Shown: positions 1 to 64,000, numbered from the stretch's first letter. The stretch is 64,000 nucleotides of DNA from a bacterium (GCA_965240465.1 OZ251219.1:1535139-1599138), one strand, 5' to 3'. Notes: generated by a model from the letters alone, not told the origin. Translations and numbers: made by a program.

Positions 1-639
1 GACGACGGTTTAGTACTACCACCCAAGGTAGCTCCACTCCAAGTGGTCATTGTTCCGATTGCCAAAACCGAAGCCGAAATAAAAAAAGTCATGCCAATCG
101 CAGAAAAAATCGCTGCCAACCTTCAGGAAAACTTTGAGCCACATCGCATCAAACTAGACCAAAATTTCGATGACCGACCCGCAGAACGCTTCTTCCACTG
201 GATACAGCAAGGAGTACCACTAAGAATAGAAATAGGATCTCGCGACATCGCCCAAGAGCAAGCCATCCTGGTCAGGCGTGATAACAGAGAAAAAATTACG
301 ACCTCCTTTTCTTCTTTGACACAACAAGTCCAGCAAACCATGGAGAAAATCCAACTAAACCTGCTACAAAATGCCCAAAAATTTCAACATCAGCATTCAT
401 ATCAGGTAGATTCCCTCCCCCAATTTCAACAGCAAATTGAACAAGGAGGATTCTGCTACGCTCACTGGGATAACACCACAAAATCCGAACAAAGGCTCAA
501 ATCCTTAGCTAAGGCTACTCTTCGCTACATCCCTTTTAAGCCTTCCGACCTGCCACCACATATCAGCCCAGAACCCGGTAAATGCATTGTTAGCGGCCAG
601 CCATCTAAGCAGCGAGTATTGTTTTCTCAGGCTTACTGA
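1..639 (+). CDS. proS: Proline--tRNA ligase, C-terminal part (5' truncated by window)
   Basis: Anticodon-binding domain (GVPLRIEIGSRD) and C-terminal ATLRYIPF...GKCIVSG...VLFSQAY typical of eukaryote/archaeal-type ProRS. Confidence 0.92.
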   Translation, partial: DDGLVLPPKVAPLQVVIVPIAKTEAEIKKVMPIAEKIAANLQENFEPHRIKLDQNFDDRPAERFFHWIQQGVPLRIEIGSRDIAQEQAILVRRDNREKITTSFSSLTQQVQQTMEKIQLNLLQNAQKFQHQHSYQVDSLPQFQQQIEQGGFCYAHWDNTTKSEQRLKSLAKATLRYIPFKPSDLPPHISPEPGKCIVSGQPSKQRVLFSQAY

Positions 640-696
640 GGTTAAATTATCACCGCCCCCGATGGTGATAGGTTGAAAAAATTTGGGAGTATCAGT

Positions 697-1962
697 ATGG
701 CACCTCAAGGTTATCGGGCTTTGGATGTAGAGGGGGTCAGGGCTTATGGTGCCGATGCCGATGCGATTAGCAATATTTTGGGCGGGGATGCTCCCGACTG
801 GCAAATAAGAGAGGTGGGAGATGGCAACTTAAACTTGGTCTTTGTGCTGAAAGGAACCAGCGGTGCTTGTGTGGTAAAGCAAGCCCTGCCATATATGCGA
901 GTAATCGGGGAAAGCTGGCCTTTGTCGTTGGAGCGTAATCGGTTTGAGTATCATTGCTTGGTTCGCCATGCTCGCTGTGTGCCTACTCTAATTCCTAGTT
1001 TGTATCATCATGATGAGACGATGGCATTGATGGCTATGGAATATCTAACGCCGCATATCATCTTGCGGAAAGAATTAATCGCTGGACAGCAATTTCCACT
1101 GGTAGCAGAACATATGGCAGAATATATGTCCCAGACCTTGTTCAAAACATCTGACCTATATTTGAAGCCAGAAAAAAGGCGAAAAGATCTGCGTTTGTTC
1201 TCGGAAAACAACCAACTATGTGAAATTACCGAAAATGTGGTTTTCACTGACCCCTATCTTGACTCTGAGATGAATCGTTGGACTAGTCCTCAGCTGGATA
1301 AGCTGGTAGCAGAGTTTCGGGCTGATAAAAAATTGAAGCAAGCCTCCCAAGAGTTAAAATTCAAATTTGCCACCGCGGCTGAATCTCTGTTGCATGGCGA
1401 CCTACACTCAGGCTCTGTTATGGTCACCGAACAGGAAACTAAGGTGATTGATCCTGAATTCGCATTTTATGGTCCAATGGGTTTTGATGTGGGAGCCTTA
1501 CAAGCTAATTGGTTGCTGGCTTATTTTTCTCAGCCTGGACACGAACAAAAAGCTCGGGAAAGGGAGCAGTACCAAAGTTGGATACTGCAACAAGTGCGGG
1601 ATACATGGCGTCTGTTTGCCGAGAAATTTAGCAGGCTCTGGCAAGAGGAACGCTGTGGAACGGCATTTAGTCGCTCGCTGTTGAAACAGGATACTGAGGC
1701 ACTAGATTGCTTCCTACAAAGGCTACACCAAGATGCGATTGGATTCGCTGGGGCTAAGATGGTGCGGCGTCTGATAGGAGTGGCACATGTAGAGGATATG
1801 GAAGCGATTGAAAACCCAGACCTACGTGCCAAATGTGAAGAAAAAGCCTTGCAGCTGGGTCGTCTGCTGATGCTGGAAAGAGCCAGCGACTTCCAAGAAG
1901 TCTGCCAGTTAGCCCAAAACTTAGAGAGGCGGGACTTGGGGAGGCGAGACTTGGGGGCTTGA
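697..1962 (+). CDS. mtnK: S-methyl-5-thioribose kinase
   Basis: EVGDGNLNLVF, KQALPY, HGDLHSGS and IDPEFAFYGPMGFD motifs; ATG at 697 chosen over TTG at 673. Confidence 0.93.
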   Translation: MAPQGYRALDVEGVRAYGADADAISNILGGDAPDWQIREVGDGNLNLVFVLKGTSGACVVKQALPYMRVIGESWPLSLERNRFEYHCLVRHARCVPTLIPSLYHHDETMALMAMEYLTPHIILRKELIAGQQFPLVAEHMAEYMSQTLFKTSDLYLKPEKRRKDLRLFSENNQLCEITENVVFTDPYLDSEMNRWTSPQLDKLVAEFRADKKLKQASQELKFKFATAAESLLHGDLHSGSVMVTEQETKVIDPEFAFYGPMGFDVGALQANWLLAYFSQPGHEQKAREREQYQSWILQQVRDTWRLFAEKFSRLWQEERCGTAFSRSLLKQDTEALDCFLQRLHQDAIGFAGAKMVRRLIGVAHVEDMEAIENPDLRAKCEEKALQLGRLLMLERASDFQEVCQLAQNLERRDLGRRDLGA

Positions 1963-2068
1963 CTTGGGGGCTTGACTTGGGGGCTTGACTTGGGGGCTTG
2001 ACTTGGAGAGGCGGGACTTGGGGGCTTGACTTGGGGGCTTGACTTGGAGAGGCGGGACTTGGGGGCTT
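1926..2068. repeat. G-rich tandem repeat (GACTTGGGGGCTT / GAGAGGCGGGACTTGG variants) spanning the mtnK stop
   Basis: Directly visible repeated ~13-15 nt units. Confidence 0.9.
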
Positions 2069-2267
2069 TCCAGTTAAGGAGGAACTTTCCCGTTAAGGAT
2101 GCCTGCAACATCTGGCTTATTTGGCGGTGAGGATGCTAATACGTTCTGGATGAGAAGGTTGGGACTTGGGGGCTTTCCAGTTAAGGAGGAACTTTCCCGT
2201 TAAGGATGCCTGCAACATCTGGCTTATTTGGCGGTGAGGATGCTAATACGTTCTGGATGAGAAGGTT
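2054..2267. repeat. Exact 107-bp tandem duplication
   Basis: 2054-2160 equals 2161-2267; includes the 3' end and stop of the 2224..3471 gene. Confidence 0.92.
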
Positions 2268-3471
2268 GGGAGTTGGGATCATCGGGGGGGGATGGAGCTG
2301 CGGGGGCTGGGGGGGCTGGGGAGGGAATTGCGAGGGCGGGGGTGGAGGGAATTGCGAAGGCGGGGGTGGAGGGAATTGCGAAGGCGGGGGTGGAGGGAAT
2401 TGCGAAGGCGGGGGTGGGGGATTTTGATTGGACGGAATTATTAGGGGATTTGGATGTTGGGCGGGAAGTTCGTGGTTCTGCCAAGAGGTTTTTGAAAGCG
2501 ATGTTGCGTTCGGTGAGGAAGTCGGTAAGTTGTTTGAGGACGAGGATATTGTCTTGAGGGAATTTTCTACCACTGATTTCAAATTTTGCTGGTGAGGGCA
2601 GGGCTTTTAGGGCTATGAGCAGGGATTTTTCTTGGGTTTTCAGTTGCTGAGGGGTAAGTTGGCGAGCTGTTTGATGTTCCTTGATGACGGACTGAAACAC
2701 GACTTTTAGGAGTGCCTCTTGTTTGAGCATGTCTTTTAGGAATAGGTGTTGGAGGAAGCGGAGGTACTCGGTGGCAGTATGTTGGGGGATGGCTAGCTTA
2801 ATGGCTAGTGGTTCTCCAGTGCGGATACCCAGGATGATGAGGGGTAATTGTTCTCCTCCGATCGCCGACGAGATGAATTGATGACTGCTATGAAGAAAGT
2901 GCAACAACGCGGTAAGAGGCTGAGTATTTAGGGGAGCGGGCGGTTCGGGGTAATAGCGGATTTCCAGTGTTTGGGTGTTTTTGGGGAGGGGGGGAGAAGC
3001 AGGAGATTCAAGGGCTTCCACCACGGTATTGGCGGTATTGAAGGCGGTCAGACAACGATTCCAAGTTTCTGAGATATGCTGAGCTTCCATTAGCAGCTGG
3101 ATCGGCTGATGATGTACTTGATAGCGATGGGTTTCCCAGTTTTGCTGGAACAGAGTCTCTAGGCGTTCAGCGATGGCTTTCAGTTCACTGGGCTTTAAGA
3201 TGATTGCCAATAATTCTTCTTCGGTTGAATGATAATCTTCCAGCCGAATTAGCAATCTGCGTACGGTTTTAAGATGCTCTGGGATGGCATTGCAGAAGGC
3301 ATCACTGAATAGGTACTTACTTAAATCGCTTTCTAGGGATTTGCTTGGATTAGGACCGGCGTACTCGGGCAGATTTTTTAGAAACCGCACCCGCAATTCC
3401 TCATAGCAACGGAAGCCGTTATCCATCAACAGCACGAATTCTCGAAAGATTGTACTTAGTTCATCTACCAT
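2224..3471 (-). CDS. Hypothetical protein with Pro-rich repetitive C-terminus (PAFAIPST x4; 24-nt repeat 2323-2418)
   Basis: 415-aa ORF with plausible composition; no family recognised. Confidence 0.7.
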   Translation of the reverse strand: MVDELSTIFREFVLLMDNGFRCYEELRVRFLKNLPEYAGPNPSKSLESDLSKYLFSDAFCNAIPEHLKTVRRLLIRLEDYHSTEEELLAIILKPSELKAIAERLETLFQQNWETHRYQVHHQPIQLLMEAQHISETWNRCLTAFNTANTVVEALESPASPPLPKNTQTLEIRYYPEPPAPLNTQPLTALLHFLHSSHQFISSAIGGEQLPLIILGIRTGEPLAIKLAIPQHTATEYLRFLQHLFLKDMLKQEALLKVVFQSVIKEHQTARQLTPQQLKTQEKSLLIALKALPSPAKFEISGRKFPQDNILVLKQLTDFLTERNIAFKNLLAEPRTSRPTSKSPNNSVQSKSPTPAFAIPSTPAFAIPSTPAFAIPSTPALAIPSPAPPAPAAPSPPDDPNSQPSHPERISILTAK

Positions 3472-3579
3472 TATTCTTCCCTGAGGCGATGTTATGAAAA
3501 AAACGATTTAATCCTAGCTTAAAAAGCACTGCCAGTAATAGTCCTGTGAACCCGACAAAATTAAGGAAGAGGTTCTAAT

Positions 3580-3999
3580 TTAGAGTAATTCTTGTTTCTC
3601 AAAGAAAAAGGCTATTTCTACTTGAGCTGTTTCTGGGGCATCAGAGCCATGAACGGTATTGAGCTCTATGCTGGTACCAAATCGCTTACGGATAGTCCCT
3701 TCTGCAGCTTCAGCGGGATCGGTAGCTCCCATCAATTCTCGGTTCTTACCAATGGCACGCTCTCCTTCCAACACCGATACCACAATCGCACCTGAAGACA
3801 TATAAGTAGTGAGGCTGTCAAAAAAAGGTCTTCCTCGGTGCACCTCATAAAATCCTTGGGCTGCTTGCTTGCTAAGGCGATATTTCTTCAACGCCAGAAT
3901 AGTCAATCCATTCTTCTCAAAATGGCTTAGTATCTCTCCCACCAGATTTCTTCGTACCCCATCGGGCTTAATAATAGACAAGGTGCGTTCAAGGCTCAT
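3580..3999 (-). CDS. ndk: Nucleoside diphosphate kinase
   Basis: [14 protein letters not shown] and NTVHGSD (catalytic His) motifs. Confidence 0.97.
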
Positions 4000-4095
4000 T
4001 TATCATCCTTTTTAATTAGCAAACAACAACTAGCTACAACTTACACCATCAACAGGGGGGCATTCAAATATAAACCCCATCTTTCACCTGTTTTT

Positions 4096-4152
4096 ATGCA
4101 TTGTATCATGCATTGTCTCATGCATTGTCTCATGCATTGTCTCATGCGTTGT
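4096..4152. repeat. 12-nt tandem repeat ATGCATTGTCTC, ~5 copies
   Basis: Visible in the ndk-rmuC intergenic region. Confidence 0.9.
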
Positions 4153-4184
4153 TTTGCGCGATCGCAAAGTTTCACCTATCCCTA

Positions 4185-5249
4185 TTAATTCAGTGACTTC
4201 TTAGCTGGTACTCCGAGTTCTTTCAGTTTCTCCACCCTTCCAATGAGATTACCCTTGCCCTGTGAGAGCTTACTGAGGGCATCTTCTTGAGCTGTAGAGG
4301 CTTTGCCAAGGGCATTTCCGATGTCTTTTATATCATCCACAAAACCCACGACCTTGTCATAGAGGGCACCTGCTTGACGGGCGATCTCTTGGGCATTGGT
4401 GTTTTGCCTTTCCACCCGCCAAATAGAAGCAGTTATCTGCAAACATGATAGCAAGGTAGTAGGAGAAACAGGTATCACTCGGAGTTTCCAAGCTCGCTCA
4501 GACAGATCTCTGTAAGTTTGCGTGGCCAACACTAATGAGCCATCGTTGGGCATAAACATGTATACAAAATCGGGAGTACGCAACTTTGCTTGGGTGTAGT
4601 CTCGCTCGGACAAAGCTTTCACATGATTTAATACCGCCTCTGAGTGTTTCTGCTTAGCCACTTGGGCAGCTTGGGGGTCATTGTTGTTGAGTGCATCCTC
4701 ATGTTCTGCATAATGCTTTAGCGATACCTTGGCATCTACCACCAAGCAACGATTCTCTGGCAGCAGCACTACGGCATCGGGCTTTAACAAACCTCCTTCC
4801 TCGCTCCTCAGCCCCAAGCCCTTTCCCTGCAGAACGTACTCCTCCCCTTCACGCAAACCCGAAGCCTCCAGTATTTTCTCTAATATCATTTCCCCCCAAT
4901 GACCCTGAGATTTCACATCTCCTCGCATGGCCCGAGTTAAACTATCTGTACTGCTGGATAAATTTTTGTGTATCCGTACAAATTGCTCCATCTGCCCCTT
5001 AAATTCAGCATTCTGGGTACGCACATCCCGATGAAAATCCTTAATGTTCTCTCTCAGAGGATTAAGCAACACGCCTAAATGCGAATTCATTTCCTCAGCC
5101 TGCTTCTTGGTAGTAACCTCGGTTTGCTGTGCAAATTCTAGTTTTAGAGTTTCCTTTCGTCCCTTTTTTTCTCCCCATAAAAACCCCGCCAATAAACCAA
5201 TCACCCCTGCCGATAGAAATAGAAAAATTGTTAAAAAAATTACACTCAT
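4185..5249 (-). CDS. rmuC: DNA recombination protein RmuC
   Basis: N-terminal TM; QGHWGEMILEKILE, PD...VVDAK, PDFVYMFMP and SPTTL motifs. Confidence 0.93.
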   Translation of the reverse strand: MSVIFLTIFLFLSAGVIGLLAGFLWGEKKGRKETLKLEFAQQTEVTTKKQAEEMNSHLGVLLNPLRENIKDFHRDVRTQNAEFKGQMEQFVRIHKNLSSSTDSLTRAMRGDVKSQGHWGEMILEKILEASGLREGEEYVLQGKGLGLRSEEGGLLKPDAVVLLPENRCLVVDAKVSLKHYAEHEDALNNNDPQAAQVAKQKHSEAVLNHVKALSERDYTQAKLRTPDFVYMFMPNDGSLVLATQTYRDLSERAWKLRVIPVSPTTLLSCLQITASIWRVERQNTNAQEIARQAGALYDKVVGFVDDIKDIGNALGKASTAQEDALSKLSQGKGNLIGRVEKLKELGVPAKKSLN

Positions 5250-5262
5250 TCAAATCCTTTCA

Positions 5263-5306
5263 AAAAAACCAGCATACAAAAAACCAGCATACAAAAAACC
5301 AGCATA
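5263..5306. repeat. 15-nt tandem repeat AAAAAACCAGCATAC x3
   Basis: Directly upstream of the rmuC start. Confidence 0.9.
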
Positions 5307-5506
5307 TTTGGATGAAAACACCCCATGCTATCAAACTAGAGCTAAATATAATACCCACAGTAATATTGACAATCGGAGGGGGGTGGGGGGTGCAGATCAG
5401 CTATGAAGGTTAGCCTTGCAAAAAACCAATGAGAAGGTACGGTATCACTAGTGCTAGTAAGAGATATTTCGTACTGGTTTAGGCATAAATCATCTTAGCT
5501 ATAAAC

Positions 5507-6457
5507 ATGTTTGAGGATATTAAGGAACATATGGACTCAGTAGAGCGGGAGTTATCTCGCGGGCTGGATTCTAGTACTCCATATTTGGACGAGATGGCAA
5601 ACCACATAGTTGGTGCTGGAGGCAAGCGGGTACGTCCTGCGATGGCTATTTATGCGGCTTGGATGTTTGGTGATATTAGCGAGAAGGTTTATCGGGCGGC
5701 CGCGGCCTTAGAGTACTTGCATACGGCAACATTACTACATGACGATGTGGTAGATGAGGCCGATAAGCGTCGGGATCAGGATACCGCGCGGATATTATGG
5801 AGCAATGCATCTAGTGTTTTGGTGGGGGATTATCTGCTAGCATTTGCGTTTAAGAGTTTGACAAAGTTAGGTGATAAGGAGGTTTTGGATTTAATATCGG
5901 AGACGACCATGTTGATGTCTCGCGGAGAGTTGTTGCAATTGGCGAGTAGTTGTATCACGGCTAGCGAGCATGATTACTTAGATATTATTCATTGCAAGAC
6001 TGCCTGTTTATTTGGAGCTGCGGTTCAGATAGGCGGTATTTTGGGTGGTGCTGAGAAGGAGTTACATGGGAGTTTATATGAGTATGGTCATGGAGTAGGG
6101 ATGGCATTTCAGATGGTGGATGATGCCTTAGACTACTCTAGGGTTAGGATTGGCAAGCCATTGGGAACGGATTTTCGTGAGGGTAAGATAACCATGCCTT
6201 TAAGTCGTTTGCTATTGGTAGCGAGTCCTGAAGAGAGATCCGAGTTGCAGCAGGCTTTGAGTGGTAGTGAGGTTGACGATGTGGTTATTAGTCGGGTGGT
6301 GGATTTAATGCAGAAGTACAAGATTGATGATTATACTCGCAGGATTGCTTTAGAGAGAGTTGAAAAGAGCTTGTCATTATTGGATAAGATGCCTAAAGGA
6401 GAGGCACGTGATTCTCTTATGCGTTTGGCTTGGTTTGTAGTGGAACGCCAGTATTAA
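5507..6457 (+). CDS. ispB: Polyprenyl (octaprenyl) diphosphate synthase
   Basis: GGKRVRP, LLHDDVVD, KTA, FQMVDD and DFREGKIT motifs. Confidence 0.9.
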   Translation: MFEDIKEHMDSVERELSRGLDSSTPYLDEMANHIVGAGGKRVRPAMAIYAAWMFGDISEKVYRAAAALEYLHTATLLHDDVVDEADKRRDQDTARILWSNASSVLVGDYLLAFAFKSLTKLGDKEVLDLISETTMLMSRGELLQLASSCITASEHDYLDIIHCKTACLFGAAVQIGGILGGAEKELHGSLYEYGHGVGMAFQMVDDALDYSRVRIGKPLGTDFREGKITMPLSRLLLVASPEERSELQQALSGSEVDDVVISRVVDLMQKYKIDDYTRRIALERVEKSLSLLDKMPKGEARDSLMRLAWFVVERQY

Positions 6458-6474
6458 AGTATGGATGACTAAGC

Positions 6475-7425
6475 ATGATAACTACGATTATATTGCCGTT
6501 GAATGTATTTTTAGCGGTAGTTTTATCATTGGCTGGGGGCAGATTTTTTAACGGGAGCAATTTGCTGAAGATTTCCTTAGTTGGCGGGGCGATTACGCCT
6601 TTGTTACTGGCTGGAGTGGCATATGTATTATCGCCAGATTTGGTGCAATTTATGGGAGTATTGCCTGGCAGTGCATCGTTGGTGAGTAGTCTACTGTTGT
6701 TTGCCAGCCTTGGAGTACTTGGTGGTTTTACACTAGGAAAGGGAGTACTGGTGGGGCTTGGTATGCTGGCTGGTTGGGGGTTGTTTTTACTATTAGCGTT
6801 GTTATCTGCACCTGGGGTAGTTTTCACACATTTAGGCATCCGATTGATGTACCCTGCTTTCAATAGTGGTCATCCTTGGTTGCTAGCGGTGCTGGCAATG
6901 TTGATGTTGTTACTTTTTATTACAAATAAACTGCATCTATGGCACAAATTGGCGATTGCTTTCACTGTTGTTTATCTGCTGGGGGGAGTTTCTTTTTATG
7001 CTTATACACGAAACAAAGCTGAGCTTACTCAAGGTCAGTTATTTCCTGCTTCCAGCTGGCCTAGAAATTGGTGGGTGGTTGAATCCAAAGATGAGGAGTG
7101 GAACATCAAACGCCTGAGGGTAGGTAAGGCACCACAGCCCATCGCTAGCTTGCCCCAGTGGAACAATCAGCCAGAGCTTCTTTACTTACTTAGAGACCCA
7201 ATTGTTGCTAATTTCTATTACGATGTATTCTTGCATCCTATCGCCAAGATCCAACAGAATGAAAATGGCCAGCTACTTACCATATCGGAGGCTCTTCCTG
7301 TAGCCAAAGAAAAATCTCAGTCTGTTTTTATCTTGGATGCTAACCAACGAGAACAATTTCGCATCTACACCCTGCAAAAATTGCCGAAGAAAAACTCAAA
7401 AGAAAAATCAGAAGAAAAATCATGA
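6475..7425 (+). CDS. Hypothetical multi-pass membrane protein
   Basis: Several hydrophobic helices then a soluble C-terminus; overlaps the folE start (ATGA). Confidence 0.7.
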   Translation: MITTIILPLNVFLAVVLSLAGGRFFNGSNLLKISLVGGAITPLLLAGVAYVLSPDLVQFMGVLPGSASLVSSLLLFASLGVLGGFTLGKGVLVGLGMLAGWGLFLLLALLSAPGVVFTHLGIRLMYPAFNSGHPWLLAVLAMLMLLLFITNKLHLWHKLAIAFTVVYLLGGVSFYAYTRNKAELTQGQLFPASSWPRNWWVVESKDEEWNIKRLRVGKAPQPIASLPQWNNQPELLYLLRDPIVANFYYDVFLHPIAKIQQNENGQLLTISEALPVAKEKSQSVFILDANQREQFRIYTLQKLPKKNSKEKSEEKS

Positions 7426-7937
7426 GCAATTCTCAATATCCCAAGCCTTCCTCAAAAAATATCCAAGCAGGTTTCTCGCTTGTACTTAAAGGACTTGGCA
7501 TCACAACAAATATAGAACAAACCGCCCAGCAAACCACTCAAGCTTGGCTGGAACATCTTACCACCGCTCTCCACCACCCACCACCAGCTATTTCTCTTAT
7601 CTCTGCCTCGCCTAATCGGGGTATAATTCAGCTGAACCGAATTCCATTTCATTCTTTGTGTTCGCATCATTTACTGCCCTTTTTTGGATATGCCAAGGTT
7701 GAGTATATCCCTGATAAACACATATGCAGTATTTCTTCGCTCTCCAAAATTACACAGCATCTTGCTAAACAGCCAACCTTGCAAGAGCAACTCACTCTAC
7801 AAATCTCCCAGCATCTACAACAAGTCCTCCAACCGAAAGCCCTTAAAATAAATCTTTCTGCTCGGCATCTTTGCCTACAGCTGCGAAATGGACATCCACA
7901 CACCTTTTCAACTTCTCATACCCAAGGTCAGTGGTGA
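7422..7937 (+). CDS. folE: GTP cyclohydrolase I (divergent)
   Basis: SLCSHHLLPFFG, QEQLT and HLC zinc-site motifs. Confidence 0.8.
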   Translation: MSNSQYPKPSSKNIQAGFSLVLKGLGITTNIEQTAQQTTQAWLEHLTTALHHPPPAISLISASPNRGIIQLNRIPFHSLCSHHLLPFFGYAKVEYIPDKHICSISSLSKITQHLAKQPTLQEQLTLQISQHLQQVLQPKALKINLSARHLCLQLRNGHPHTFSTSHTQGQW

Positions 7938-13115: not shown

Positions 13116-13206
13116 GCAGGTGGTGCTTCGCAATGATACTTGATACTTCGCAATTGATGCTTCGCAATAAATATCCTCACTTTAGGAAGCTAAATAATAA
13201 ATCCCT

Positions 13207-13234
13207 TGTCAGGAGGGCGTCTTCCCTCCTGACA
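13207..13234. terminator. 11-bp perfect hairpin after the rlu gene (terminator-like or REP-like)
   Basis: TGTCAGGAGGG / CCCTCCTGACA; no clear U-tract. Confidence 0.45.
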
Positions 13235-13428
13235 CGGTCTTGGCAGGGTGGGTATGCCCCGCGCACTGGCCAATGTGTCCTCATTTATAAACCTGAATTG
13301 TTGATGAATAATCATTGTATATCTGCATTAGCGGTCTTAAAAAGCATTTATTTTTTTCTTCTGTTATAAAGATAACAACTATTGAAAATGCAGTTGTGAG
13401 TATCGCATGGCAATTCTATGAGGAAATT

Positions 13429-13581: not shown

Positions 13582-13614
13582 CAGTTTTGCTCCAGATAAG
13601 GTGAGTACCCAGCT

Positions 13615-42151: not shown

Positions 42152-42158
42152 TGGATAA

Positions 42159-45509: not shown

Positions 45510-45510
45510 A

Positions 45511-46152: not shown

Positions 46153-46205
46153 AAGAGGGCATGTGAATTATCAGGGTGGTATTACAGTAAAGGCAGTACT
46201 AGTAA

Positions 46206-47627
<1,422 letters not shown>

Positions 47628-52496: not shown

Positions 52497-52558
52497 ATGG
52501 CAACAATCTCAAATATTTTCAAATATATCGGGCTAGGATGAGCATATCGCAACCCACG

Positions 52559-52649
52559 CGATGCTCGTGCGATACCCTGCGATACTCGTGCGATACTCGG
52601 ATGCTCGTGCGATACTCGGATGCTCGTGCGATACTCGGATGCTCGTGCA
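52559..52649. repeat. 19-nt tandem repeat GATGCTCGTGCGATACTCG
   Basis: Directly visible upstream of sucC. Confidence 0.85.
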
Positions 52650-52723
52650 ATTCGTGAAAAGAATCGGAGCTAATCCTCTTAAAAAACTTGCCAGAAAGCG
52701 GTGTTTGTGGATAATGCAGTTAT

Positions 52724-53899
52724 ATGAAGATACATGAGCATCAGGCGAAAGAGATATTGGTTCGTTATGATGTGCCTACTCCTAAGGGGGTTGCCGTTTT
52801 TTCGGTATCGGAAGCTGTCAAAGCAACAGAAGAGATAGGGGGTTCGTGCTGGGTACTAAAAGCTCAGATTCATGCTGGAGGGCGAGGCAAGGGAGGGGGC
52901 GTGAAGGTTTGTGGTAGTCGGGAGGAGTTACAAAGAGAAGCCGAGCGTATGCTGGGGATGCAGTTGGTGACTCATCAAACGGGGCCTGAGGGTCAACTGG
53001 TGCAAAGGTTGCTAGTGGAGGAAGGATTGGAGATAGAGAAGGAATTTTATCTTTCCATGCTGGAGGATCGGAGTAGCCAATGCCCGATGGTACTCGCCTG
53101 CGGACAGGGAGGAATGGATATAGAAGAAGTAGCTGCTAAAACGCCTGCTAAGATTCATCGGGAGGCGATTGATGTGTTGCTGGGATTTCGTCCTTTTCAG
53201 GCTGCCAGATTGATAGAAAAGCTGGAGATTGCCCAGATTAATTCTCAATTAGTTCGCCCAGCTGCCAAAATGTTGCTTAATCTTTACGAATCTTTTAGCC
53301 AAGAAGATTTCTCATTGCTGGAGATCAACCCCCTAGCACTCACCGCGGATGGACGCATTCTGGCATTGGATGCCAAAGTCACCCTAGATGATAACGCCTC
53401 TTTCCGACATCCCAATTGGCAAAAACTATCCGATCCCAATGAAGAAAATCCGCTGGAACGACAAGCCTCAGAAGCGGATCTGAGTTATATCAAGCTAGCT
53501 GGTAGCATCGGCTGTATGGTGAACGGAGCAGGACTAGCAATGGCTACCATGGATTTAATCAAATCTTTTGGCGGAGAACCTGCCAATTTCCTAGATGTAG
53601 GCGGAAACGCCACCGCGGAACGCATCTGCACTGCCTTTCGCATTATCACCGATGACGACAATGTTAAGTGCATACTCATCAACATTTTTGGCGGGATAGT
53701 ACGTTGCGACTTGGTAGCTGAAGGCATCATTAAAGCCTTTCAAAAAGTCCAACCCAGCTCTGCAGTAGTAGTTCGCCTAGAAGGCAGTCGGGTTGAGGAA
53801 GCCCGTCAACTGATACGCCATTCCCCTCTGCAAGAAAAATTGTTCATCGCTGATAACCTCAAAGATGCAGGACAGCAGTGCGTTAAACTGGCTCAATAA
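52724..53899 (+). CDS. sucC: Succinyl-CoA ligase beta subunit
   Basis: [27 protein letters not shown] and [10 protein letters not shown] motifs. Confidence 0.98.
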
Positions 53900-53901: not shown

Positions 53902-54843
53902 ATGGCTATCCTCCTTGACAAAAATTCCCGCCTACTAGTACAAGGAATAACTGGCACACAAGGCTCGCTACACACTCGTGCCTGTAAAGAATATGGAACT
54001 CAGGTTGTCGCAGGCGTAACCCCTGGCAAAGGAGGGCAATCATTTGAGGGAATCCCAGTGTTCAACAGCGTAGCCGTAGCCGTTAAAAACACTCAAGCCA
54101 ATGTCTCCATGGTGTTCGTACCACCTCCATTTGCTGCCGATGCCATCATTGAAGCCGCTTATGCCCAAATTCCCCTCATCATTTGCATCACTGAGGGCAT
54201 CCCCGTATCCGATATGATGTGCGTCTCTGCCTACCTGAAAAATAAACCCACCAGATTAATCGGACCCAACTGCCCAGGAATTATCACTCCTGAGCAAGCC
54301 AAAGTAGGCATAATGCCCAGCTACATCCATAAAGCAGGACCAATCGGGGTCATCTCACGCTCTGGAACTCTCACCTATGAAACAGTCTGGCAACTAACCC
54401 AGCTCGGTTTAGGACAATCCACCTGCATCGGAATCGGCGGCGACTCCATCCAAGGAACTAACTTTGTGGACTGCCTAAAACTCTTCCAGCTAGACCCCGA
54501 TACTAAAGGAATCGTCCTCATCGGCGAAATTGGCGGAAATGCAGAAGAAGAAGCTGCCGAGTACATCAGGAACAATATCACCAAACCAAGCATCACCAAA
54601 CCAAGCATCACCAAACCGAGCATCACCAAACCGAGCATCACCAAACCAATTGTCGCATTCATCGCTGGGCAAACCGCCCCCATCGGTCGCCGAATGGGAC
54701 ACGCTGGTGCCATCGTAGCAGGAGGAAAAGGCACCGCGGATGAAAAAATCAAGGCTCTTCAAGCCGCAGGAGTACACATCGCTCCTACTCCCGACGTGAT
54801 TGGGCAAACCATGTTTGCGGCAATGAAAAAAATCATCAACTGA
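53902..54843 (+). CDS. sucD: Succinyl-CoA ligase alpha subunit with ITKPS repeat insertion (54577-54648)
   Basis: [15 protein letters not shown] and RMGHAGA motifs. Confidence 0.98.
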
Positions 54844-54850
54844 TGAGGCC

Positions 54851-55576
54851 ATGAACCCTATCCTGAAAAACGGCGTGGTAATCGCGGCTGGTGGCGAGAG
54901 TAGGCGGATGGGAACAGGAAAAATCTGGCGTTTGCTGGGTGATCGTCCTGTGCTGGAGTGGGTACTGAGGCTGTTCTTAGGCAATCGCGAGATAAGCAGA
55001 GTAATAATTTCTATTCACAAGGGAGATGAAGAGCGTTTTGAGGCACTGAAGGCTAAGCTAAATGCAGGAGAACGATTAACCTATGTTTTAGGTGGTCAGG
55101 AGCGTCAAGATTCGGTATATTCCGCTCTACAAAGTTTTGCCGAACAGCCACCGAGCAGGGTTTTGATTCATGATGGGGCGCGTCCTTTGTGCGATAAGGA
55201 TTTATTAAGTCGTGTTCTGTTGGCCCTGAAAAACCATCCCGTAGTCCTGCCTATATTGCCCGTACACGATACCGTTCGCAGGCAAACAGAAGGGGGGTCA
55301 TGGCAACTGGTAGCCAGAAATAGCTTGATAAAAACTCAAACCCCGCAAGGGTTCTGGTGGGATACCATTTGGCAAGTACATTGCTTATCAAAAAAGAAGC
55401 GGCTTTGTTATACCGATGATGCAGAAATGGTCATACAAGCAGGTCATCAGGTGCATATGGAAATGGGCTTAGCTGAGAATATCAAGCTAACTACCGAAGA
55501 TGATTTTGAATTTGCTAAACGTGTGCTATCATGGGGTAATAGAGATTATGAGGCTAATGTAATAAAAAATACTTGA
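54851..55576 (+). CDS. ispD: 2-C-methyl-D-erythritol 4-phosphate cytidylyltransferase
   Basis: AAGG.S.RM, GG.ERQDSV, IHDGARP, QTPQGF, TDDA and NIKLT motifs. Confidence 0.95.
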   Translation: MNPILKNGVVIAAGGESRRMGTGKIWRLLGDRPVLEWVLRLFLGNREISRVIISIHKGDEERFEALKAKLNAGERLTYVLGGQERQDSVYSALQSFAEQPPSRVLIHDGARPLCDKDLLSRVLLALKNHPVVLPILPVHDTVRRQTEGGSWQLVARNSLIKTQTPQGFWWDTIWQVHCLSKKKRLCYTDDAEMVIQAGHQVHMEMGLAENIKLTTEDDFEFAKRVLSWGNRDYEANVIKNT

Positions 55577-57875: not shown

Positions 57876-58625
57876 CTAATGGTAGAGTATCTGGCTTAGG
57901 AATAATTTCGTTCTTGCTTCTTTGGGCTTGGAGAAAAAATTGTCGGGGGAGGCACTTTCTACGATTCTACCCTCATCCATGAAAATAACACAATCTGCCA
58001 CTTCCCGAGCGAATCCCATTTCATGAGTAACTACCAGCATGGTCATGCCTTGTTTTGCTAATTCTCTCATGACATCAAGGACTTCCTTAATCATTTCTGG
58101 ATCTAGGGCTGAGGTGGGTTCATCAAATAACATGATGCGCGGTTCCATAGCCAGAGAGCGAGCAATGGCAACCCTTTGCTGCTGACCTCCTGAAAGCTGT
58201 CCCGGAAATTTATCTGCTTGCTCTGCTATCCCTACCCGCTTAAGCAGTTTTCGGGCATTGTGGATGGCTTTCTCTTTGGGTATCTTGCGGACCCACCTAG
58301 GAGCAAGGGTGATGTTATCCAGCACGGTTAAGTGGGGAAAAAGATTAAACTGCTGAAAAACAATCCCTATCTGGCTACGAATTTTTTCTATATTCTTAAG
58401 ATCGTGGGAAAGCTCTACTCCATCCACTATGATGCTTCCTTCGTCATGACTTTCTAGGCGGTTGATGGTGCGAATAAGAGTAGATTTGCCCGAACCAGAT
58501 GGTCCACAGATAACCACCCTCTCTTTATGAGATACTTCAAGATTGATGTCCTTAAGTACCTGAAAATCACCGTACTTCTTGCAAAGGCCCGATATCTTGA
58601 TGATGCTATCGCTTGATTTCTTCAT
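57876..58625 (-). CDS. aapP: General L-amino acid ABC transporter ATP-binding protein
   Basis: [17 protein letters not shown] and [12 protein letters not shown] motifs. Confidence 0.9.
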
Positions 58626-58652
58626 AAAATTTGCTCCTTAGTGGTAGAAAAA

Positions 58653-59771
58653 TTATTTATTATCGGAGGTAGCTAGTCTTTCTTCCAATTTCTTGGAATA
58701 GCGAGACATCCCATAACACATTATCCAGTAGACAAAAGCTACAAAAACATAAACCTCTACGCTCTTTCCCAGCCAATTGGCATTGTTAACCACCTGCTGA
58801 GCAGCCCCTAGAAAATCGGCAAGCCCAATGATAACCACCAGCGAAGTGTCTTTGAAAAGCTCAATGAAAGTTCCTAACATGGGAGGAATTACAATCCTAA
58901 GTGCCTGAGGCAAAACTATCAAACGGGTAGATTGCCAGTACGAAAGCCCTAAGGCATCGGCTGCTTCTTGCTGTCCGTTAGGGATCGTCTGTAATCCAGC
59001 CCGTACCACCTCGGCTACATATGCAGAAGAAAATAAGAAAAATCCTATCTGAGCCCGCAGGAGATTATCAATAAAAACCCTCTCAGGCAAAAAAAGCGGC
59101 AACATTACATTCGCAGTGAAAAGAATGGTTATCAGAGGTACCCCTCGAATGAGCTCAATAAAACTGACGCAAAGAGTCCTTAACACTGGCAAAGTCTTAC
59201 TCCGCCTCCCCAGTGCCAGTAACACGCCCAAAGGAAAAGAAAATCCTATCCCTCCCACAGTTAAAATTAAAGTGACTATCAGCCCTCCCCAAAAATTGGT
59301 GCGCACCAAAGGCAACCAAGGAACTCCGCCCATTAACAAAAAAACCAACCCAAAAGGAGCTATCAACCACGCCACTAAGTAAGCTGGACGTCTTCTTATC
59401 GCAGGAATAAAAATCATCAATGCCAATGCCAAAATGAAAAATATAGCCAAATAAGGACGCCAGCGTTCTTCATAGGGATAATTGCCAGCCAAAAAAATAT
59501 GGCGCATATCATTCACCACCGACCAACAAGCACCATCTATGCTTAAACCATCTGCCTGATAACCTTCCCGACAACTCAGATACTTAACCTCAGCTACCTT
59601 CCAAACGGCATCAAATACCGCCCACTGCAAAAAACTAGACAAAATATGCCATCCTAACCATAGACACACCAAGGTCAGCAACGAATTCCACCAACTGTTA
59701 AATAAATTAGCGCGTAGCCATCTGTATGCATCCCACCCTAAACTTAGGTACTGAACTCTGAATACCGTCAT
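58653..59771 (-). CDS. aapM: General L-amino acid ABC transporter permease
   Basis: NLF..WWNSLLT, GACW, IRGVPLI and EVVRAG...GQ.EAA motifs. Confidence 0.9.
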   Translation of the reverse strand: MTVFRVQYLSLGWDAYRWLRANLFNSWWNSLLTLVCLWLGWHILSSFLQWAVFDAVWKVAEVKYLSCREGYQADGLSIDGACWSVVNDMRHIFLAGNYPYEERWRPYLAIFFILALALMIFIPAIRRRPAYLVAWLIAPFGLVFLLMGGVPWLPLVRTNFWGGLIVTLILTVGGIGFSFPLGVLLALGRRSKTLPVLRTLCVSFIELIRGVPLITILFTANVMLPLFLPERVFIDNLLRAQIGFFLFSSAYVAEVVRAGLQTIPNGQQEAADALGLSYWQSTRLIVLPQALRIVIPPMLGTFIELFKDTSLVVIIGLADFLGAAQQVVNNANWLGKSVEVYVFVAFVYWIMCYGMSRYSKKLEERLATSDNK

Positions 59772-59786
59772 ATGCTTAAAACTCCT

Positions 59787-61166
59787 CTAGCGTTCAATCA
59801 GCTTGACCCGAGCATTGTACCAATTGAGCAAGGATGATGTACAAAGGCTAAGCGTAAGATAAAAAAACATGGTTATCGCAATTACCTCTATCGCCTGACC
59901 ACTCTGATTAAGTGTCGTCCCACCCACATTGACTAACTCAGGATAACCTATCGCAATCCCAAGGGAAGAATTCTTAGTTAAATTAAGATACTGGCTAGTC
60001 AATGGGGGTATCATTACCCTAAGCGATAAAGGCAAAATCACAAAACGCATGGTCTGAATATTAGTATGCCCCAAAGCACGAGAAGCCTCTATTTGACCTC
60101 TATCTACCGATTGAACACCACTACGAAAAATCTCGGCTATGAAAGCCGAAGTATAAGCCACCAGTGCCAACAACATAGCCGTATACTCTGGAGAAAGAGA
60201 CCACCCACCTTGATAATTAAAACCCCTTAACTCAGGAAACTCCCAGTGAAAAGGAACACCAAATACAATCACCGATAACGTCGCAGGAACCACCACCATT
60301 GCCACCGATAACCAAAACCAAGGCGGCTCACGCCCCGTCTCCTCTTGTGTCAAACGACAACGACGACGCCAAAATCCCACCGCAACTAGTCCTCCAACAA
60401 TAGCCAGAAAAAACTCGCCCATCCCGCTCTGAGGCAAAGGACCAGGCATCTGTAAGCCACGATTGTTAAGAATAAATACCCCCGCGGTTAAACTCTCTCG
60501 CACCCCCGGCAAAACGCTCAACACCGCCTTGTACCAAAAGAAAATCTGTACCAAAAGAGGAATGTTACGCAACATCTCAATATAACTAGCCGCTATCTTA
60601 GAAACCAGCCAATTGGAAGATATACGTGCTAAACCAACCGATAATCCCAATACAGTCGCTAAAATACACCCTATTAAAGATATCTTTATCGTATTCGCTA
60701 GCCCAGTCAATAATGCCAAACCATAAGAACTAGTTTCATCGTAAAATCGAAAAGTAAAAAAATCTGCCCCCAAATAAATGACAAATAAAGGAAGTCCACC
60801 CACCAAAACTACCACCGTAAATAAGCTCCAAGTACTACTACCTAAACTCTCCCCCCGAACTGCTAAATAACGCCTCAATAACCATGTCAGCCCCAAACCT
60901 AAGACAAAAACACCTAAAAATGTCCAAAAAGCTCCTCCCAACTCAAGCAATGGCGGAGTCTCACCTACACTAAATCCCGCCTCATCACTTAAAAAACCTA
61001 GCCCCGAACTAATATTCTGCTCTCTTAACCTCCTAGAAGCATTGGAAAACAACATCCATGCCAACCCCCCTAACGCCAGCAAAGTCGCTAACTGATAACC
61101 CCACCCCCATAAACGCTCATTGTATACCCCCCAGCGTAAAATATTAAATCTGTCTCGCTGCTTCAA
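59787..61166 (-). CDS. aapQ: General L-amino acid ABC transporter permease
   Basis: GFL...AGF, RNIPLL, AFIAEI.RSG and YLNLTKNSSL motifs; TTG at 61166 after GTGAGG preferred to 61199. Confidence 0.9.
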   Translation of the reverse strand: MKQRDRFNILRWGVYNERLWGWGYQLATLLALGGLAWMLFSNASRRLREQNISSGLGFLSDEAGFSVGETPPLLELGGAFWTFLGVFVLGLGLTWLLRRYLAVRGESLGSSTWSLFTVVVLVGGLPLFVIYLGADFFTFRFYDETSSYGLALLTGLANTIKISLIGCILATVLGLSVGLARISSNWLVSKIAASYIEMLRNIPLLVQIFFWYKAVLSVLPGVRESLTAGVFILNNRGLQMPGPLPQSGMGEFFLAIVGGLVAVGFWRRRCRLTQEETGREPPWFWLSVAMVVVPATLSVIVFGVPFHWEFPELRGFNYQGGWSLSPEYTAMLLALVAYTSAFIAEIFRSGVQSVDRGQIEASRALGHTNIQTMRFVILPLSLRVMIPPLTSQYLNLTKNSSLGIAIGYPELVNVGGTTLNQSGQAIEVIAITMFFYLTLSLCTSSLLNWYNARVKLIER

Positions 61167-61179
61167 TCTAACCTCACAC

Positions 61180-61223
61180 AAAAAAACCCGCCTCAGCAAC
61201 TGGAACCAGAGATGAGGCAGGTT
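61180..61223 (-). terminator. Intrinsic terminator or attenuator hairpin between aapJ and aapQ
   Basis: AACCTGCCTCA...TGAGGCGGGTT followed by a T-run on the - strand; second copy at ~63247-63290. Confidence 0.7.
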
Positions 61224-62265: not shown

Positions 62266-62469
62266 AAACCTTTACACAAAAAAACCGAACCAGGGCTGTT
62301 AGCCTCAGTCCTCTAAACACCCCCTCCTATGCTCTACTAAATTAAAAAATGATTTGCAACTATTTTTTTATCTAAATAAACAGGCAGATTTTGTACCAGC
62401 AACTTAATGGCAACTTAGATAGAATTAAAGATGAAATGCATCACGCGGTAGCCCAGTTTTTAGATACTA

Positions 62470-63300
62470 AAGCTAAGGGAATTGGCGAAGGATGATAATC
62501 GGTTTTTTTGGGGTTATCAGTGCTTGGTTTTTCTTGAGGATTATCTTTTTTACTAATTTTCCGATGCAGATATTTCGAGATACGTTGTATTTATCCAGTG
62601 GCTGTGATCGGTGGATAGGGGTTCTACCAACAAGTAGGAATGATTGTTTCGCAGTCTGGAATGTTGGTGTTTTAGGGGAGGTACCGTAATATCTGTTGTT
62701 CCCTGCCGAATATTTTGGATAATATATTCTTCCTGTCCCTTCCATTCTTTTTAATAAGCTCCAAGTACTACTACCTAAACTCTCCCCCCGAACTGCTAAA
62801 TAACGCCTCAATAACCATGTCAGCCCCAAACCTAAGACAAAAACACCTAAAACTGCAAGGTATGTTTGTGTTATTGGCGGCGGGTTGTAATGAGTCCATA
62901 ATGTTTATTCAAGTAGTTTGCTATGCGTTGATATGGGTAGCGGCTTGGTACAATAGGCGATTGGCAGATGATTCTTTACGGTGTGGTTCTTTATGGTTGG
63001 AGGGCTATGCACTGGGAGCGGAGTCTCACCTATCCTAAATCCCGCCTCATCACCTAAAAAACCTAGCCCCGAACTAATATTCTGCTCTCTCAACCTCCTA
63101 GAAACATTGGAAAACAACATCCATGCCAACCCTCCTAACGCCAGCAAAGTCGCTAACTGATAACCCCACCCCCATAAACGCTCATTGTATCCCCCCCCCA
63201 GCGTAAATTATTAAATCTGTCTCGCTGCTTCAAGCTAACCTCACACAAAAAAACCCGCCTCATCAACTGGAACCAGAGACGAGGCAGGTTAAACGCCTAG
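62470..63300 (-). pseudogene. Broken aapQ duplicate interleaved with foreign gene fragments
   Basis: 62752-62852 copies ~60820-60920 and ~63019-63300 copies ~60954-61232, with a C-tract frameshift; the intervening DNA is unrelated. Confidence 0.8.
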
Positions 63301-63366
63301 ACCGATCATCCTGCCCATTCTAACAGAATAAGCAAGTCAAACGCCTACTAGGCCGCTTTGCCCATT

Positions 63367-64000
63367 CTAACGAATAGGAGGGGCATACAACAATCCGCCC
63401 TTGCTCGCCAACTGATTGAGACCACGCTCCAAGCGTAAAGGAGTTTTTGGTCCTAAATTACGCTCAAAAATCTCACCATAATTGCCAGACTTAGCAATCG
63501 CTCTGACCGCCCAGTCTTGTGGCAAACCAGCATCCGGACCAAATGAACCAGTCTTACCTAACATACGCTGCACTTCAGGATCTTTTGAAGAACGAGCTAT
63601 CTTACTGACATTCCTACGGGTAATACCCTTTTCCTCAGCGATAATGGTGGCATTCAATACCCAGCGAACAATGTCACCAAACTGTTGATCGCCTTGTGCT
63701 ATTGCAGGACCTAAAGGCTCTTTGGAAATAATATCTGATAAAATTACGTACGCTTTTGGATCCTTAAAAACAGAATGCTGTCCCGCTAAAATAGAAACAT
63801 CGGCAGTATAGGCATCACAACGACCAGCTTCAAAAGTAATCGCGGCATCATCTGTACGTTCCAACACTACGGACTTGTACTTCAAACTGTTGGTACGGAA
63901 ATAATCAGATAAATTAAGCTCCGAAGTAGTTCCAGCATTAACACAAACAGTGGCTCCGTTTAAGTCTTTCGCACTCTTTACGCCACTCTTACGACGAACC
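63367..64000 (-). CDS. aapJ: Second aapJ paralog (5' part outside window)
   Basis: Near-identical to the 3' part of the first aapJ; frame open to the window edge. Confidence 0.9.
   Translation of the reverse strand, partial: VRRKSGVKSAKDLNGATVCVNAGTTSELNLSDYFRTNSLKYKSVVLERTDDAAITFEAGRCDAYTADVSILAGQHSVFKDPKAYVILSDIISKEPLGPAIAQGDQQFGDIVRWVLNATIIAEEKGITRRNVSKIARSSKDPEVQRMLGKTGSFGPDAGLPQDWAVRAIAKSGNYGEIFERNLGPKTPLRLERGLNQLASKGGLLYAPPIR

What the first reader, a model, noticed from the sequence alone, without database searches (positions are those of the whole stretch)
1..64000. Sawtooth G/C skew that resets at transcription-unit boundaries every few kb
Seen: on the + strand, blocks start G/T-rich, drift to C/A-rich, then flip back to G-rich. 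Approximate flips: 650, 5375, 13120, 21250, 29080, 36855, 46000, 47700, 49160, 52700, 54860, 57880. Hand counts per 60 nt: 6061-6120 has 22 G/4 C versus 7801-7860 with 19 C/5 G, in the same + operon; 49201-49260 has 23 G/8 C versus 51361-51420 with 23 C/6 G, within one - strand gene; 36481-36540 has 25 C/4 G just before a G-run. Flips occur at divergent, convergent and tandem junctions alike, so gene direction does not set them. The AT-rich acquired cassettes do not visibly follow the pattern. Established: bacterial GC skew normally flips only at ori and ter, and C-rich to G-rich is the ori polarity. Inference: a recurrent local, strand-asymmetric mutational process, such as many initiation or restart sites, or ssDNA exposure spreading from intergenic sites. 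It appears strong enough to bias protein composition (Q/L/T/P/K-rich atpH and atpG).
Basis: partly seen in the sequence, partly recalled or inferred. Interest (0 to 1): 0.8.

Follow-up and report, generated by a model that had tools for sequence, protein, structure and literature searches.

The report
Gene-anchored G/C skew sawtooth
In this small bacterial genome and its sister species, G and C trade places along genes so strongly that the effect outweighs the usual replication skew and reshapes proteins; the pattern follows the genes, not extra replication origins, and its cause is still open.

Summary
Local GC skew varies about four times more than chance allows: SD 0.178 in 1-kb windows against 0.047. 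It is strongest at synonymous sites. Sharp C-to-G jumps outnumber sharp G-to-C jumps, 152 to 32 sampled positions in this genome and 168 to 8 in its sister species.

All five hand counts are exact. Eight of the 12 listed flips are strong.

The pattern is specific to the genus. Stretches from four larger-genome relatives lack it.

The "many origins" reading is not supported. A fall from G-rich to C-rich looks the same on both strands, so a decline along the coding strand produces jumps at every junction type. The skew correlates within genes and between same-strand neighbours, but not across opposite-strand neighbours. It survives changes of replication direction.

The sawtooth accounts for only about a quarter of the excess variance. 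Most of the rest is gene-specific and conserved between the two species, r=0.64.

G trades with C while A and T stay flat. Spacers and protein composition follow the local skew.

Best reading, at confidence 0.45: a lineage-specific mutation bias tied to transcription. The closest published analogue is the gene-end skews of fungi.

The parts
560..700 (.). C-to-G up-jump at a tandem ++ junction (gene end 639, next start 673)
   Evidence: D500 = 0.43 at 650, best 0.50 at 610; 300-nt profile goes from -0.36 to +0.25
2224..5249 (-). Minus-strand gene run (unknown, ndk, rmuC) whose coding-strand four-fold skew falls from +0.44 to -0.87
   Evidence: Half-gene four-fold skews; Pfam RmuC and NDK
5250..5506 (.). 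Strongest up-jump in the window. A divergent spacer with a C/A-rich tandem repeat on the left and G-runs on the right
   Evidence: D500 = 0.67; spacer sequence shown
5507..7937 (+). Three-gene plus-strand run (polyprenyl synthase, unknown membrane protein, GTP cyclohydrolase I/QueF-like). Skew declines from +0.47 to -0.47
   Evidence: Pfam
13116..13614 (.). Up-jump in a spacer (tandem ++)
   Evidence: D500 = 0.43 at 13120, best 0.54 at 13230
14654..16355 (-). AT-rich cassette (22-32% GC) with an Eco57I-type methylase. Flat skew, no gradient
   Evidence: Genome-wide, genes with GC<0.36 show no gradient
21150..21460 (.). Short up-jump ahead of the rRNA adenine dimethylase gene
   Evidence: D500 = 0.39-0.43; +0.41 in the 300-nt bin starting at 21301
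25287..29048 (+). Two-gene run whose all-site skew goes from +0.49 to -0.35. The first 800 nt hold nine G-runs of 7 to 13 G
   Evidence: Pfam Rsm22 and DUF2851
26500..27500 (.). Maximum of genome-wide cumulative GC skew (genome 1,562,156, about window 27,018). This is the likely replication terminus, and + strand skew is mostly negative beyond it
29040..29155 (.). Up-jump at a tandem ++ junction
   Evidence: D500 = 0.54-0.55
36635..36900 (.). Up-jump after the aromatic amino acid lyase gene, whose 3' half has a four-fold skew of -0.84
38561..47627 (+). ATP synthase operon (atpF, atpH, atpA, atpG, atpD) with a C-rich coding strand. atpG has a four-fold skew of -0.81. AT-rich cassettes interrupt the operon at 42159-43605 and 44750-46100
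   Evidence: Pfam; skews
44700..44800 (.). Up-jump at the end of atpG, with a C15 run at 44764.
52500..52724 (.). Up-jump ahead of sucC
   Evidence: D500 = 0.49-0.53
54720..54860 (.). Up-jump between sucD and ispD, which lie 7 nt apart
   Evidence: D500 = 0.36-0.43; half-gene skews go from -0.60 to +0.33
57876..61199 (-). ABC transporter run. Coding-strand four-fold skew falls stepwise across the half-genes: +0.74, +0.47, +0.29, +0.18, -0.33, -0.23
   Evidence: Pfam
62266..62700 (.).
   Evidence: The 300-nt profile goes from -0.31 to +0.34

Best explanation
The genus holding this genome (G000) and G001 has acquired a strong bias in G versus C usage that is read on the coding (non-template) strand. 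It has two layers.

1. A gene- or operon-specific level. Four-fold GC skew runs from about -0.9 to +0.9 with SD 0.33, and it is conserved between the two species.
2. A decline of about 0.4 over the first 1.5-2 kb from the gene start. G is replaced by C at four-fold sites and by A at two-fold purine sites.

Because a G-to-C decline reads the same on either strand, rows of genes in any orientation draw a + strand sawtooth with sharp C-to-G steps in the spacers.

Most likely this is a mutation or repair asymmetry tied to transcription. The 5' part of a transcription unit and the rest would then experience different strand-specific regimes, for example R-loop or negative-supercoil exposure of the non-template strand near the start, set against a uniform loss of G from the non-template strand.

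Shown: the pattern, its anchoring, its lineage specificity and its effect on proteins. Inferred: the link to transcription and the chemistry.
For: Anchoring to genes and the coding strand:
- Four-fold skew by distance from the start, for genes of 900-2200 nt: -0.01, -0.07, -0.19, -0.25, -0.34, -0.38, -0.40 per 300 nt in G000. G001 gives nearly the same series.
- Leading- and lagging-strand genes show the same gradient, offset by about 0.2.
- Correlation runs within genes and between same-strand neighbours only.
- Resets occur at 16-150 nt gaps (+0.17 and +0.26) but not at overlapping or tightly coupled genes (+0.04).

Persistence:
- Over 810 orthologue pairs r=0.64, with four-fold identity of 0.36 against 0.255 expected by chance. 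Within-gene windows give r=0.58.
- In the 310 orthologues that changed replication orientation, r stays 0.59-0.64.

Not codon selection or protein constraint:
- Spacer skew tracks the four-fold skew of the flanks, r about 0.2-0.5 by junction type and side.
- The shift in positions 1+2 from unskewed orthologues tracks own four-fold skew, r=0.755. The relatives' own four-fold and position 1+2 skews do not predict it, r=0.07 and 0.10.

Other points:
- Lineage-specific: stretches of four relatives (60-140 kb each) show no gradient and gene-level SD of 0.12-0.19.
- Membrane-protein genes are more G-rich: +0.10 for genes with 4 or more TM segments against -0.21 for none. The hydropathy of relatives' orthologues predicts the skew, r=0.34.
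- A published analogue exists in fungi, with uniform AT skew (PMC3315797, abstract and passages read).
Against: - There are no expression data; no RNA holder was listed.
- A proxy for expression, protein conservation, barely correlates with skew: r=-0.04 and -0.14.
- The ribosomal-protein operon shows no monotonic decline over 10 kb and only average skew.
- The signature is not the classical non-template C-to-T. C/(C+T) at two-fold sites and AT4 skew stay flat along genes.
- Mfd, Ung, RNase HI, Rho, TopA, MutS and Nth are all present in both skewed genomes. No genus-specific loss explains the onset.
- The best anchor is each gene's own start, not my operon groupings.
- In G001 a 3'-end term is as strong as the 5' term: dLL 555 against 449.
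- Position explains little compared with gene identity: dLL about 590 against 5315. What sets each gene's level is unknown.
- A weak + strand covariance spans divergent spacers in G001, +0.08.
Confidence: 0.45

Rival explanations
1. Selection on RNA or codons. C-ending codons become increasingly favoured along genes (a translation-efficiency or accuracy ramp), and/or G-rich, C-poor 5' parts and C-rich, G-poor 3' parts tune where Rho can load.
For: The gene's own start is the best anchor. The effect is largest at synonymous sites. The polarity is the one expected from a codon-efficiency ramp, as noted in PMC3315797 (passage read). Rho is present. Terminator-like hairpins are no more frequent than in shuffles, 23 against 19.4 +/- 5.
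Against: Spacers share the skew. Amino-acid positions moved with it. Ribosomal-protein genes are not extreme. Protein conservation shows almost no relation to skew. G-rich extremes up to +0.9 need a force of their own. The length scale of 1.5 kb is far beyond a rut site or a start-codon ramp. The unskewed relative G008 also lacks any terminator excess.
Confidence: 0.2
2. Many local initiation, restart or ssDNA-exposure sites lie in the spacers and act in both directions regardless of gene direction, in the manner of miniature N-domains.
For: The sawtooth has origin polarity. Up-jumps are enriched in non-coding DNA: 41% and 58% against 12% overall. They occur at divergent (16), tandem (21) and convergent (11) junctions. 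The 5' and 3' terms are symmetric in G001. Spacers are rich in tandem repeats and G/C runs. The shape matches human N-domains (PMC3320577 and PMC2764438, search listing only).
Against: All of those features also follow from a coding-strand decline. There is no + strand correlation across opposite-strand neighbours in G000 or across convergent ones in G001. Convergent spacer halves do not flip. In G000 the 5' term dwarfs the 3' term, 579 against 60. Tightly coupled genes do not reset. Most of the variance is a per-gene level that this model does not predict. AT skew does not co-vary at four-fold sites. One ordinary ori/ter pair is visible.
Confidence: 0.12
3. Slippage-driven patches. In a genome full of tandem repeats, expansion and decay of G-rich or C-rich units leave strand-skewed patches.
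For: Skewed tandem repeats and G/C runs lie in spacers and at gene ends. The G13-bearing Gly-rich region at 25.4-26.1 kb is one example. A weak + strand covariance spans divergent spacers in G001.
Against: The skew is strongest at four-fold sites of conserved codons and is shared by orthologues at 63% identity. It is present in well-conserved enzymes such as the aromatic lyase (Pfam E=1e-180), whose 3' half has a four-fold skew of -0.84.
Confidence: 0.08

Closest known systems
[quoted passage not shown]
   Same: The GC-skew gradient is anchored to genes. It affects four-fold sites and amino-acid usage and reaches into flanking non-coding DNA. AT skew is uniform along genes, so plain C-to-T deamination is judged insufficient. 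The mechanism is unresolved.
   Different: The polarity is reversed: fungi are C-biased at the 5' end and G-biased at the 3' end. Those are eukaryotes using RNA polymerase II. Here there is also a very large per-gene level, with SD 0.33.
Replication-associated GC skew of bacteria (leading strand G>C; recalled textbook knowledge)
   Same: It is a strand asymmetry of G against C, and the C-to-G step has origin polarity. This genome also has the ordinary version: ori near 607,845, ter near 1,562,156, and a leading-minus-lagging offset of about 0.2 at four-fold sites.
   Different: The ordinary skew flips only at ori and ter and follows the DNA strand, not the gene. The local skew here is several times larger, follows the coding strand and survives changes of replication orientation.
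Skew N-domains of the human genome (PMC3320577, PMC2764438; search listing only)
   Same: A sawtooth of sharp upward jumps with gradual declines between them.
   Different: N-domains are megabase-scale and are attributed to fork-polarity gradients. Here the scale is 1-5 kb, the pattern is tied to gene orientation, and there is no AT co-variation at four-fold sites.
Transcription-associated strand asymmetry and R-loop-linked GC skew (bacterial non-template C-to-T bias, recalled; human gene-end GC skew, Ginno et al. 2013, PMC3787257, abstract seen in the search listing)
   Same: A non-template strand that is G-rich just after the start of transcription, decaying with distance.
   Different: The known bacterial effect is weak and is a C-to-T effect. 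Here G trades with C, the sign reverses towards the 3' end, and the amplitude reaches +/-0.9 at four-fold sites.

Membership tests
Replication origin or terminus type skew switch | The skew sign follows the DNA strand on both sides of the switch, whatever the gene orientation | tested here: not met
   The + strand pair correlation across convergent junctions is about 0 in both genomes. Across divergent junctions it is about 0 in G000 and weakly positive in G001. The neighbour correlation of + strand residuals is -0.17 to +0.07.
Replication origin or terminus type skew switch | One minimum and one maximum of cumulative skew per chromosome | tested here: met
   The genome has one global minimum (607,845) and one maximum (1,562,156, about window 27,018). 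The local jumps are additional to these and are not extrema of that kind.
Replication origin or terminus type skew switch | DnaA boxes or experimentally mapped initiation at the site | not tested
   No DnaA-box scan was run and no replication data are available.
N-domain-like replication sawtooth | Sharp upward jumps with gradual declines | tested here: met
   152 against 32 and 168 against 8 sampled positions.
N-domain-like replication sawtooth | GC and TA skews co-vary, and the pattern is independent of transcription direction | tested here: not met
   AT4 skew is flat along the gradient. The pattern is coding-strand specific.
Transcription-associated strand asymmetry | Sign set by the coding strand and anchored near the start of the gene or transcription unit | tested here: met
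   Transcription-unit boundaries themselves are inferred from gap sizes only.
Transcription-associated strand asymmetry | Magnitude scales with expression | tested here: inconclusive
   No RNA data. The conservation proxy gives r=-0.04 and -0.14. Ribosomal-protein genes are near average.
Transcription-associated strand asymmetry | Excess of C-to-T on the non-template strand | tested here: not met
   Along genes, C/(C+T) at two-fold sites and T at four-fold sites are flat. Only G/(A+G) and G against C change. Composition is not a direct measure of a mutation spectrum.
Fungal-type gene-end GC skew | Different GC skew at the 5' and 3' ends, seen at four-fold sites and in amino-acid usage, with uniform AT skew | tested here: met
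   The polarity is opposite to that in fungi.
Codon-usage ramp or translational selection | Confined to codon choice, with no effect on non-coding DNA or on amino acids | tested here: not met
   Spacer skew correlates with flank four-fold skew, r about 0.2-0.5. The position 1+2 shift gives r=0.755.

The most novel reading that the evidence does not exclude
Each gene start in this genus is a site where nascent transcripts form R-loops. These expose the non-template strand and perhaps prime short tracts of strand-displacement DNA synthesis. The chromosome would then carry about a thousand transcription-anchored 'mini-origins' of repair or replication, and their exposure gradients would be written into the sequence.
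Probability: 0.1. Interest if true: 0.9.

Novelty: new variant of a known kind. Interest (0 to 1): 0.66.

Why it matters
If the bias is mutational and tied to transcription, this genus would be the clearest bacterial case of a gene-anchored process outweighing replication in shaping strand composition.

- The excess variance at four-fold sites is 0.127, of which replication direction explains 0.014.
- The bias drags protein composition with it.
- The two sister genomes and their unskewed relatives offer a natural system for finding the gene or physiology behind such asymmetries. The cause is also unresolved for the fungal analogue.
- The pattern is a caution for tools that read origins, inversions or horizontal transfer from local GC skew.

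My two full-text searches for a bacterial counterpart found none. Those searches cover open-access papers only.

Tried and rejected
- Periodicity of about 7.8 kb, suggested by the listed flips. The spectrum is broad with no peak.
- G/C segregation driven by CpG avoidance or dinucleotide bias. CpG o/e is 0.68 and GpC 1.15, similar to relatives.
- A neighbour-context model of four-fold sites. It gave r=0.71 with the observed skew, but it is circular because the neighbouring bases share the local skew.
- Expression as the driver of gene level. Ribosomal-protein operon and protein conservation give no clear relation.
- Candidate gene losses. Mfd, Ung, RNase HI, Rho, TopA, MutS and Nth are present in G000 and G001. 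Endonuclease V and the RecG wedge domain were not found in any of the 5 genomes searched. A Y-family polymerase was not found in G000, G001 or G009. A second, MutY-like HhH-GPD gene is missing in G000 but present in G001. None of these is genus-specific. Only 5 genomes were searched.
- Operon-level anchoring fitted worse than gene-level anchoring.
- A fossil of an ancestral replication orientation. This is rejected because opposite-strand neighbours do not share + strand skew.
- Promoter and terminator scans were no better than shuffles, both in the window (45 against 41; 23 against 19.4) and in relative G008. They are uninformative about transcription-unit boundaries.
- Sequencing runs. No RNA holder was listed, and the only holders are contigs of one study.
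- A recent-mutation spectrum from the paralogous repeat genes at G000 254-274 kb.
- A word search of earlier scan notes found nothing.
- One literature query failed on syntax and was not repeated.


Full report
**What the window is.** The window is the last 64 kb of a single 1,599,138-base contig with 45% GC. I saw such repeats in many spacers. Genome-wide cumulative skew has one minimum at 607,845 and one maximum at 1,562,156. The maximum is about window position 27,018, so the window straddles the likely replication terminus.

**Check of the observation.**
- All five hand counts are exact.
- The 300-nt profile shows blocks that start G-rich, drift C-rich and then jump back.
- Eight of the 12 listed flips reach the window's 95th percentile for the right-minus-left 500-nt difference. 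Four are weak: 46000, 47700, 49160 and 57880. Flips near 44750 and 62300 were missed.
- Genome-wide, the SD of 1-kb skew is 0.178 against 0.047 expected from sampling.
- Sharp upward steps outnumber sharp downward ones: 152 against 32 sampled positions, or 54 against 24 peaks. Upward peaks are 48% intergenic against 12% for random positions. They fall at divergent (16), tandem (21) and convergent (11) junctions and inside genes (6).
- There is no periodicity.

**It is not protein constraint.**
- The variation is largest at four-fold sites: SD 0.40 in 600-nt windows against 0.17 binomial. It correlates with the skew of intergenic DNA in the same windows, r=0.40.
- Each spacer half correlates with the four-fold skew of the gene end next to it, r about 0.2-0.5 by junction type and side.
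- I compared 93 orthologue-like pairs with unskewed relatives, at median 43.5% identity. Those relatives' own four-fold skew (r=0.07) and position 1+2 skew (r=0.10) do not predict this genome's four-fold skew.
- In the same pairs, the change in position 1+2 skew relative to the relative tracks this genome's four-fold skew, r=0.755. Proteins have therefore been dragged by the nucleotide bias. The Q/L/T/P-rich atpG (four-fold skew -0.81) is one example.

**It is lineage-specific.**
- The one same-genus genome held, G001 (1.72 Mb, one contig, median 63% amino-acid identity), shows the same features: 1-kb SD 0.174, 168 upward against 8 downward steps, the same gradient, and the same excess variance of 0.127.
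- Stretches of four larger genomes show 1-kb SDs of 0.04-0.08, no gradient, and gene-level SDs of 0.12-0.19. Three are from the same family (60-140 kb each) and one is from the order (60 kb).
- Only these stretches were examined, not the whole genomes of the relatives.

**Anatomy.**
- On the coding strand, four-fold skew falls with distance from the gene's start. For genes of 900-2200 nt the series is -0.01, -0.07, -0.19, -0.25, -0.34, -0.38, -0.40 per 300 nt. G001 is nearly identical.
- Along this decline G falls from 0.215 to 0.151 and C rises from 0.231 to 0.308, while A and T stay flat.
- At two-fold sites G/(A+G) falls from 0.41 to 0.29, but C/(C+T) is flat.
- Leading- and lagging-strand genes show the same slope, offset by about 0.2.
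- Position explains little. Adding 5' and 3' distance terms gains about 590 log-likelihood units, and replication direction gains 658. A separate level for each gene gains 5315.
- Of the excess variance of 30-site windows (0.127), gene means account for about 0.11 and replication direction for 0.014.
- Gene levels range from about -0.9 to +0.9, with SD 0.33 against 0.12 from sampling. The distribution is unimodal.
- Gene levels are conserved between the two species, r=0.64 over 810 pairs. This holds although shared four-fold sites are only 36% identical against 25.5% expected by chance. Even within genes, windows correlate at r=0.58.

**Why the 'many origins' reading fails.** A G-to-C decline is unchanged by reverse complementing. 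A 5'-to-3' decline on the coding strand therefore produces a + strand sawtooth with C-to-G steps at every kind of junction, so seeing flips at all junction types says nothing about gene direction. The tests that do separate the two readings favour the gene:
- Four-fold G/C states correlate within a gene (0.14 falling to 0.05 over 1.5 kb). At about half that level they correlate between adjacent same-strand genes.
- On the + strand they are uncorrelated across convergent junctions in both genomes and across divergent ones in G000.
- The halves of convergent spacers do not flip.
- Tightly coupled gene pairs do not reset (+0.04 over 46 pairs), while pairs with gaps of 16-150 nt do (+0.17 and +0.26).
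- The 310 orthologues that changed replication orientation shifted by only +/-0.13-0.17 and kept their gene-specific level, r=0.59-0.64.

Some points remain in favour of a boundary-anchored process. In G001 the 3' term is as strong as the 5' term. There is also a weak + strand covariance across divergent spacers in G001.

**Mechanism.** I favour a mutation or repair asymmetry tied to transcription, at confidence 0.45.
- For it: the anchoring, the reach into spacers, the independence from replication direction, the persistence over saturated divergence, and the G-richness of membrane-protein genes.
- The membrane-protein link would fit the known tie between co-transcriptional membrane insertion, negative supercoiling and R-loops. 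That tie is recalled, not tested here.
- Against it: no expression data; no relation to protein conservation; an unremarkable ribosomal-protein operon; a G-for-C signature rather than C-to-T; and no genus-specific loss among the repair and transcription genes I checked.
- Selection on RNA or codons has the right polarity and the right anchor. It does not explain the spacers, the amino-acid shifts, the G-rich extremes or the 1.5-kb scale.
- Repeat slippage contributes visibly in spacers and in low-complexity coding stretches. It cannot explain the skew at four-fold sites of conserved codons.

- It shares the effect on four-fold sites and amino acids, the reach into flanking DNA, the uniform AT skew and the unresolved cause.
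- Its polarity is reversed.
- Human N-domains share the sawtooth shape only (search listing).
- My two full-text searches for a bacterial counterpart found none. These cover open-access papers only, so this does not prove that none is in print.

**Verdict.** The feature is real, strong, genus-wide and unusual. I file it as a new variant of gene-anchored strand asymmetry, with the mechanism open.

Noticed in passing
window 26500-27500 (genome about 1,562,156): The maximum of cumulative GC skew, the likely replication terminus, lies inside the window. This explains the mostly negative + strand skew after about 29 kb.
   Followed up: partly
window 42159-43605 and 44750-46100: AT-rich cassettes interrupt the ATP synthase operon. 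One lies between atpA and atpG and holds an N6/N4 DNA methylase plus an unknown ORF. The other lies between atpG and atpD and holds a SocA/Panacea antitoxin-like gene.
   Followed up: no
window 25456-26107: Nine G-runs of 7 to 13 G sit inside the 5' part of a 733-aa ORF with an Rsm22-like domain. They form a Gly-rich low-complexity stretch at 67-68% GC.
   Followed up: no
window 44764 and 47629-47652: Long C-runs (C15, C10, C8) lie directly after the stops of atpG and atpD. Genome-wide, intergenic runs in tandem spacers are mostly C on the strand of the flanking genes: 38 against 16.
   Followed up: partly
L196 (G000 254001-274000): Five large paralogous repeat-protein genes (566-1677 aa, internal repeats of about 370 nt) lie in tandem next to rnhA. 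Four short matches to the rnhA 3' end recur every 3-3.5 kb among them.
   Followed up: partly
G000 and G001, whole genomes: There is no gene-strand bias: 510 leading against 522 lagging genes. In addition, 310 of 810 orthologues differ in leading or lagging status between the two species, despite long syntenic runs.
   Followed up: partly
G000 whole genome: Only one HhH-GPD gene (Nth-sized, 215 aa) was found, where G001 has a second of 401 aa. No Y-family polymerase was found in either genome.
   Followed up: no
window 30185-34781: Two large adjacent GLUG-motif proteins (876 and 639 aa) lie on the minus strand. One of them also carries a thrombospondin type 3 repeat.
   Followed up: no
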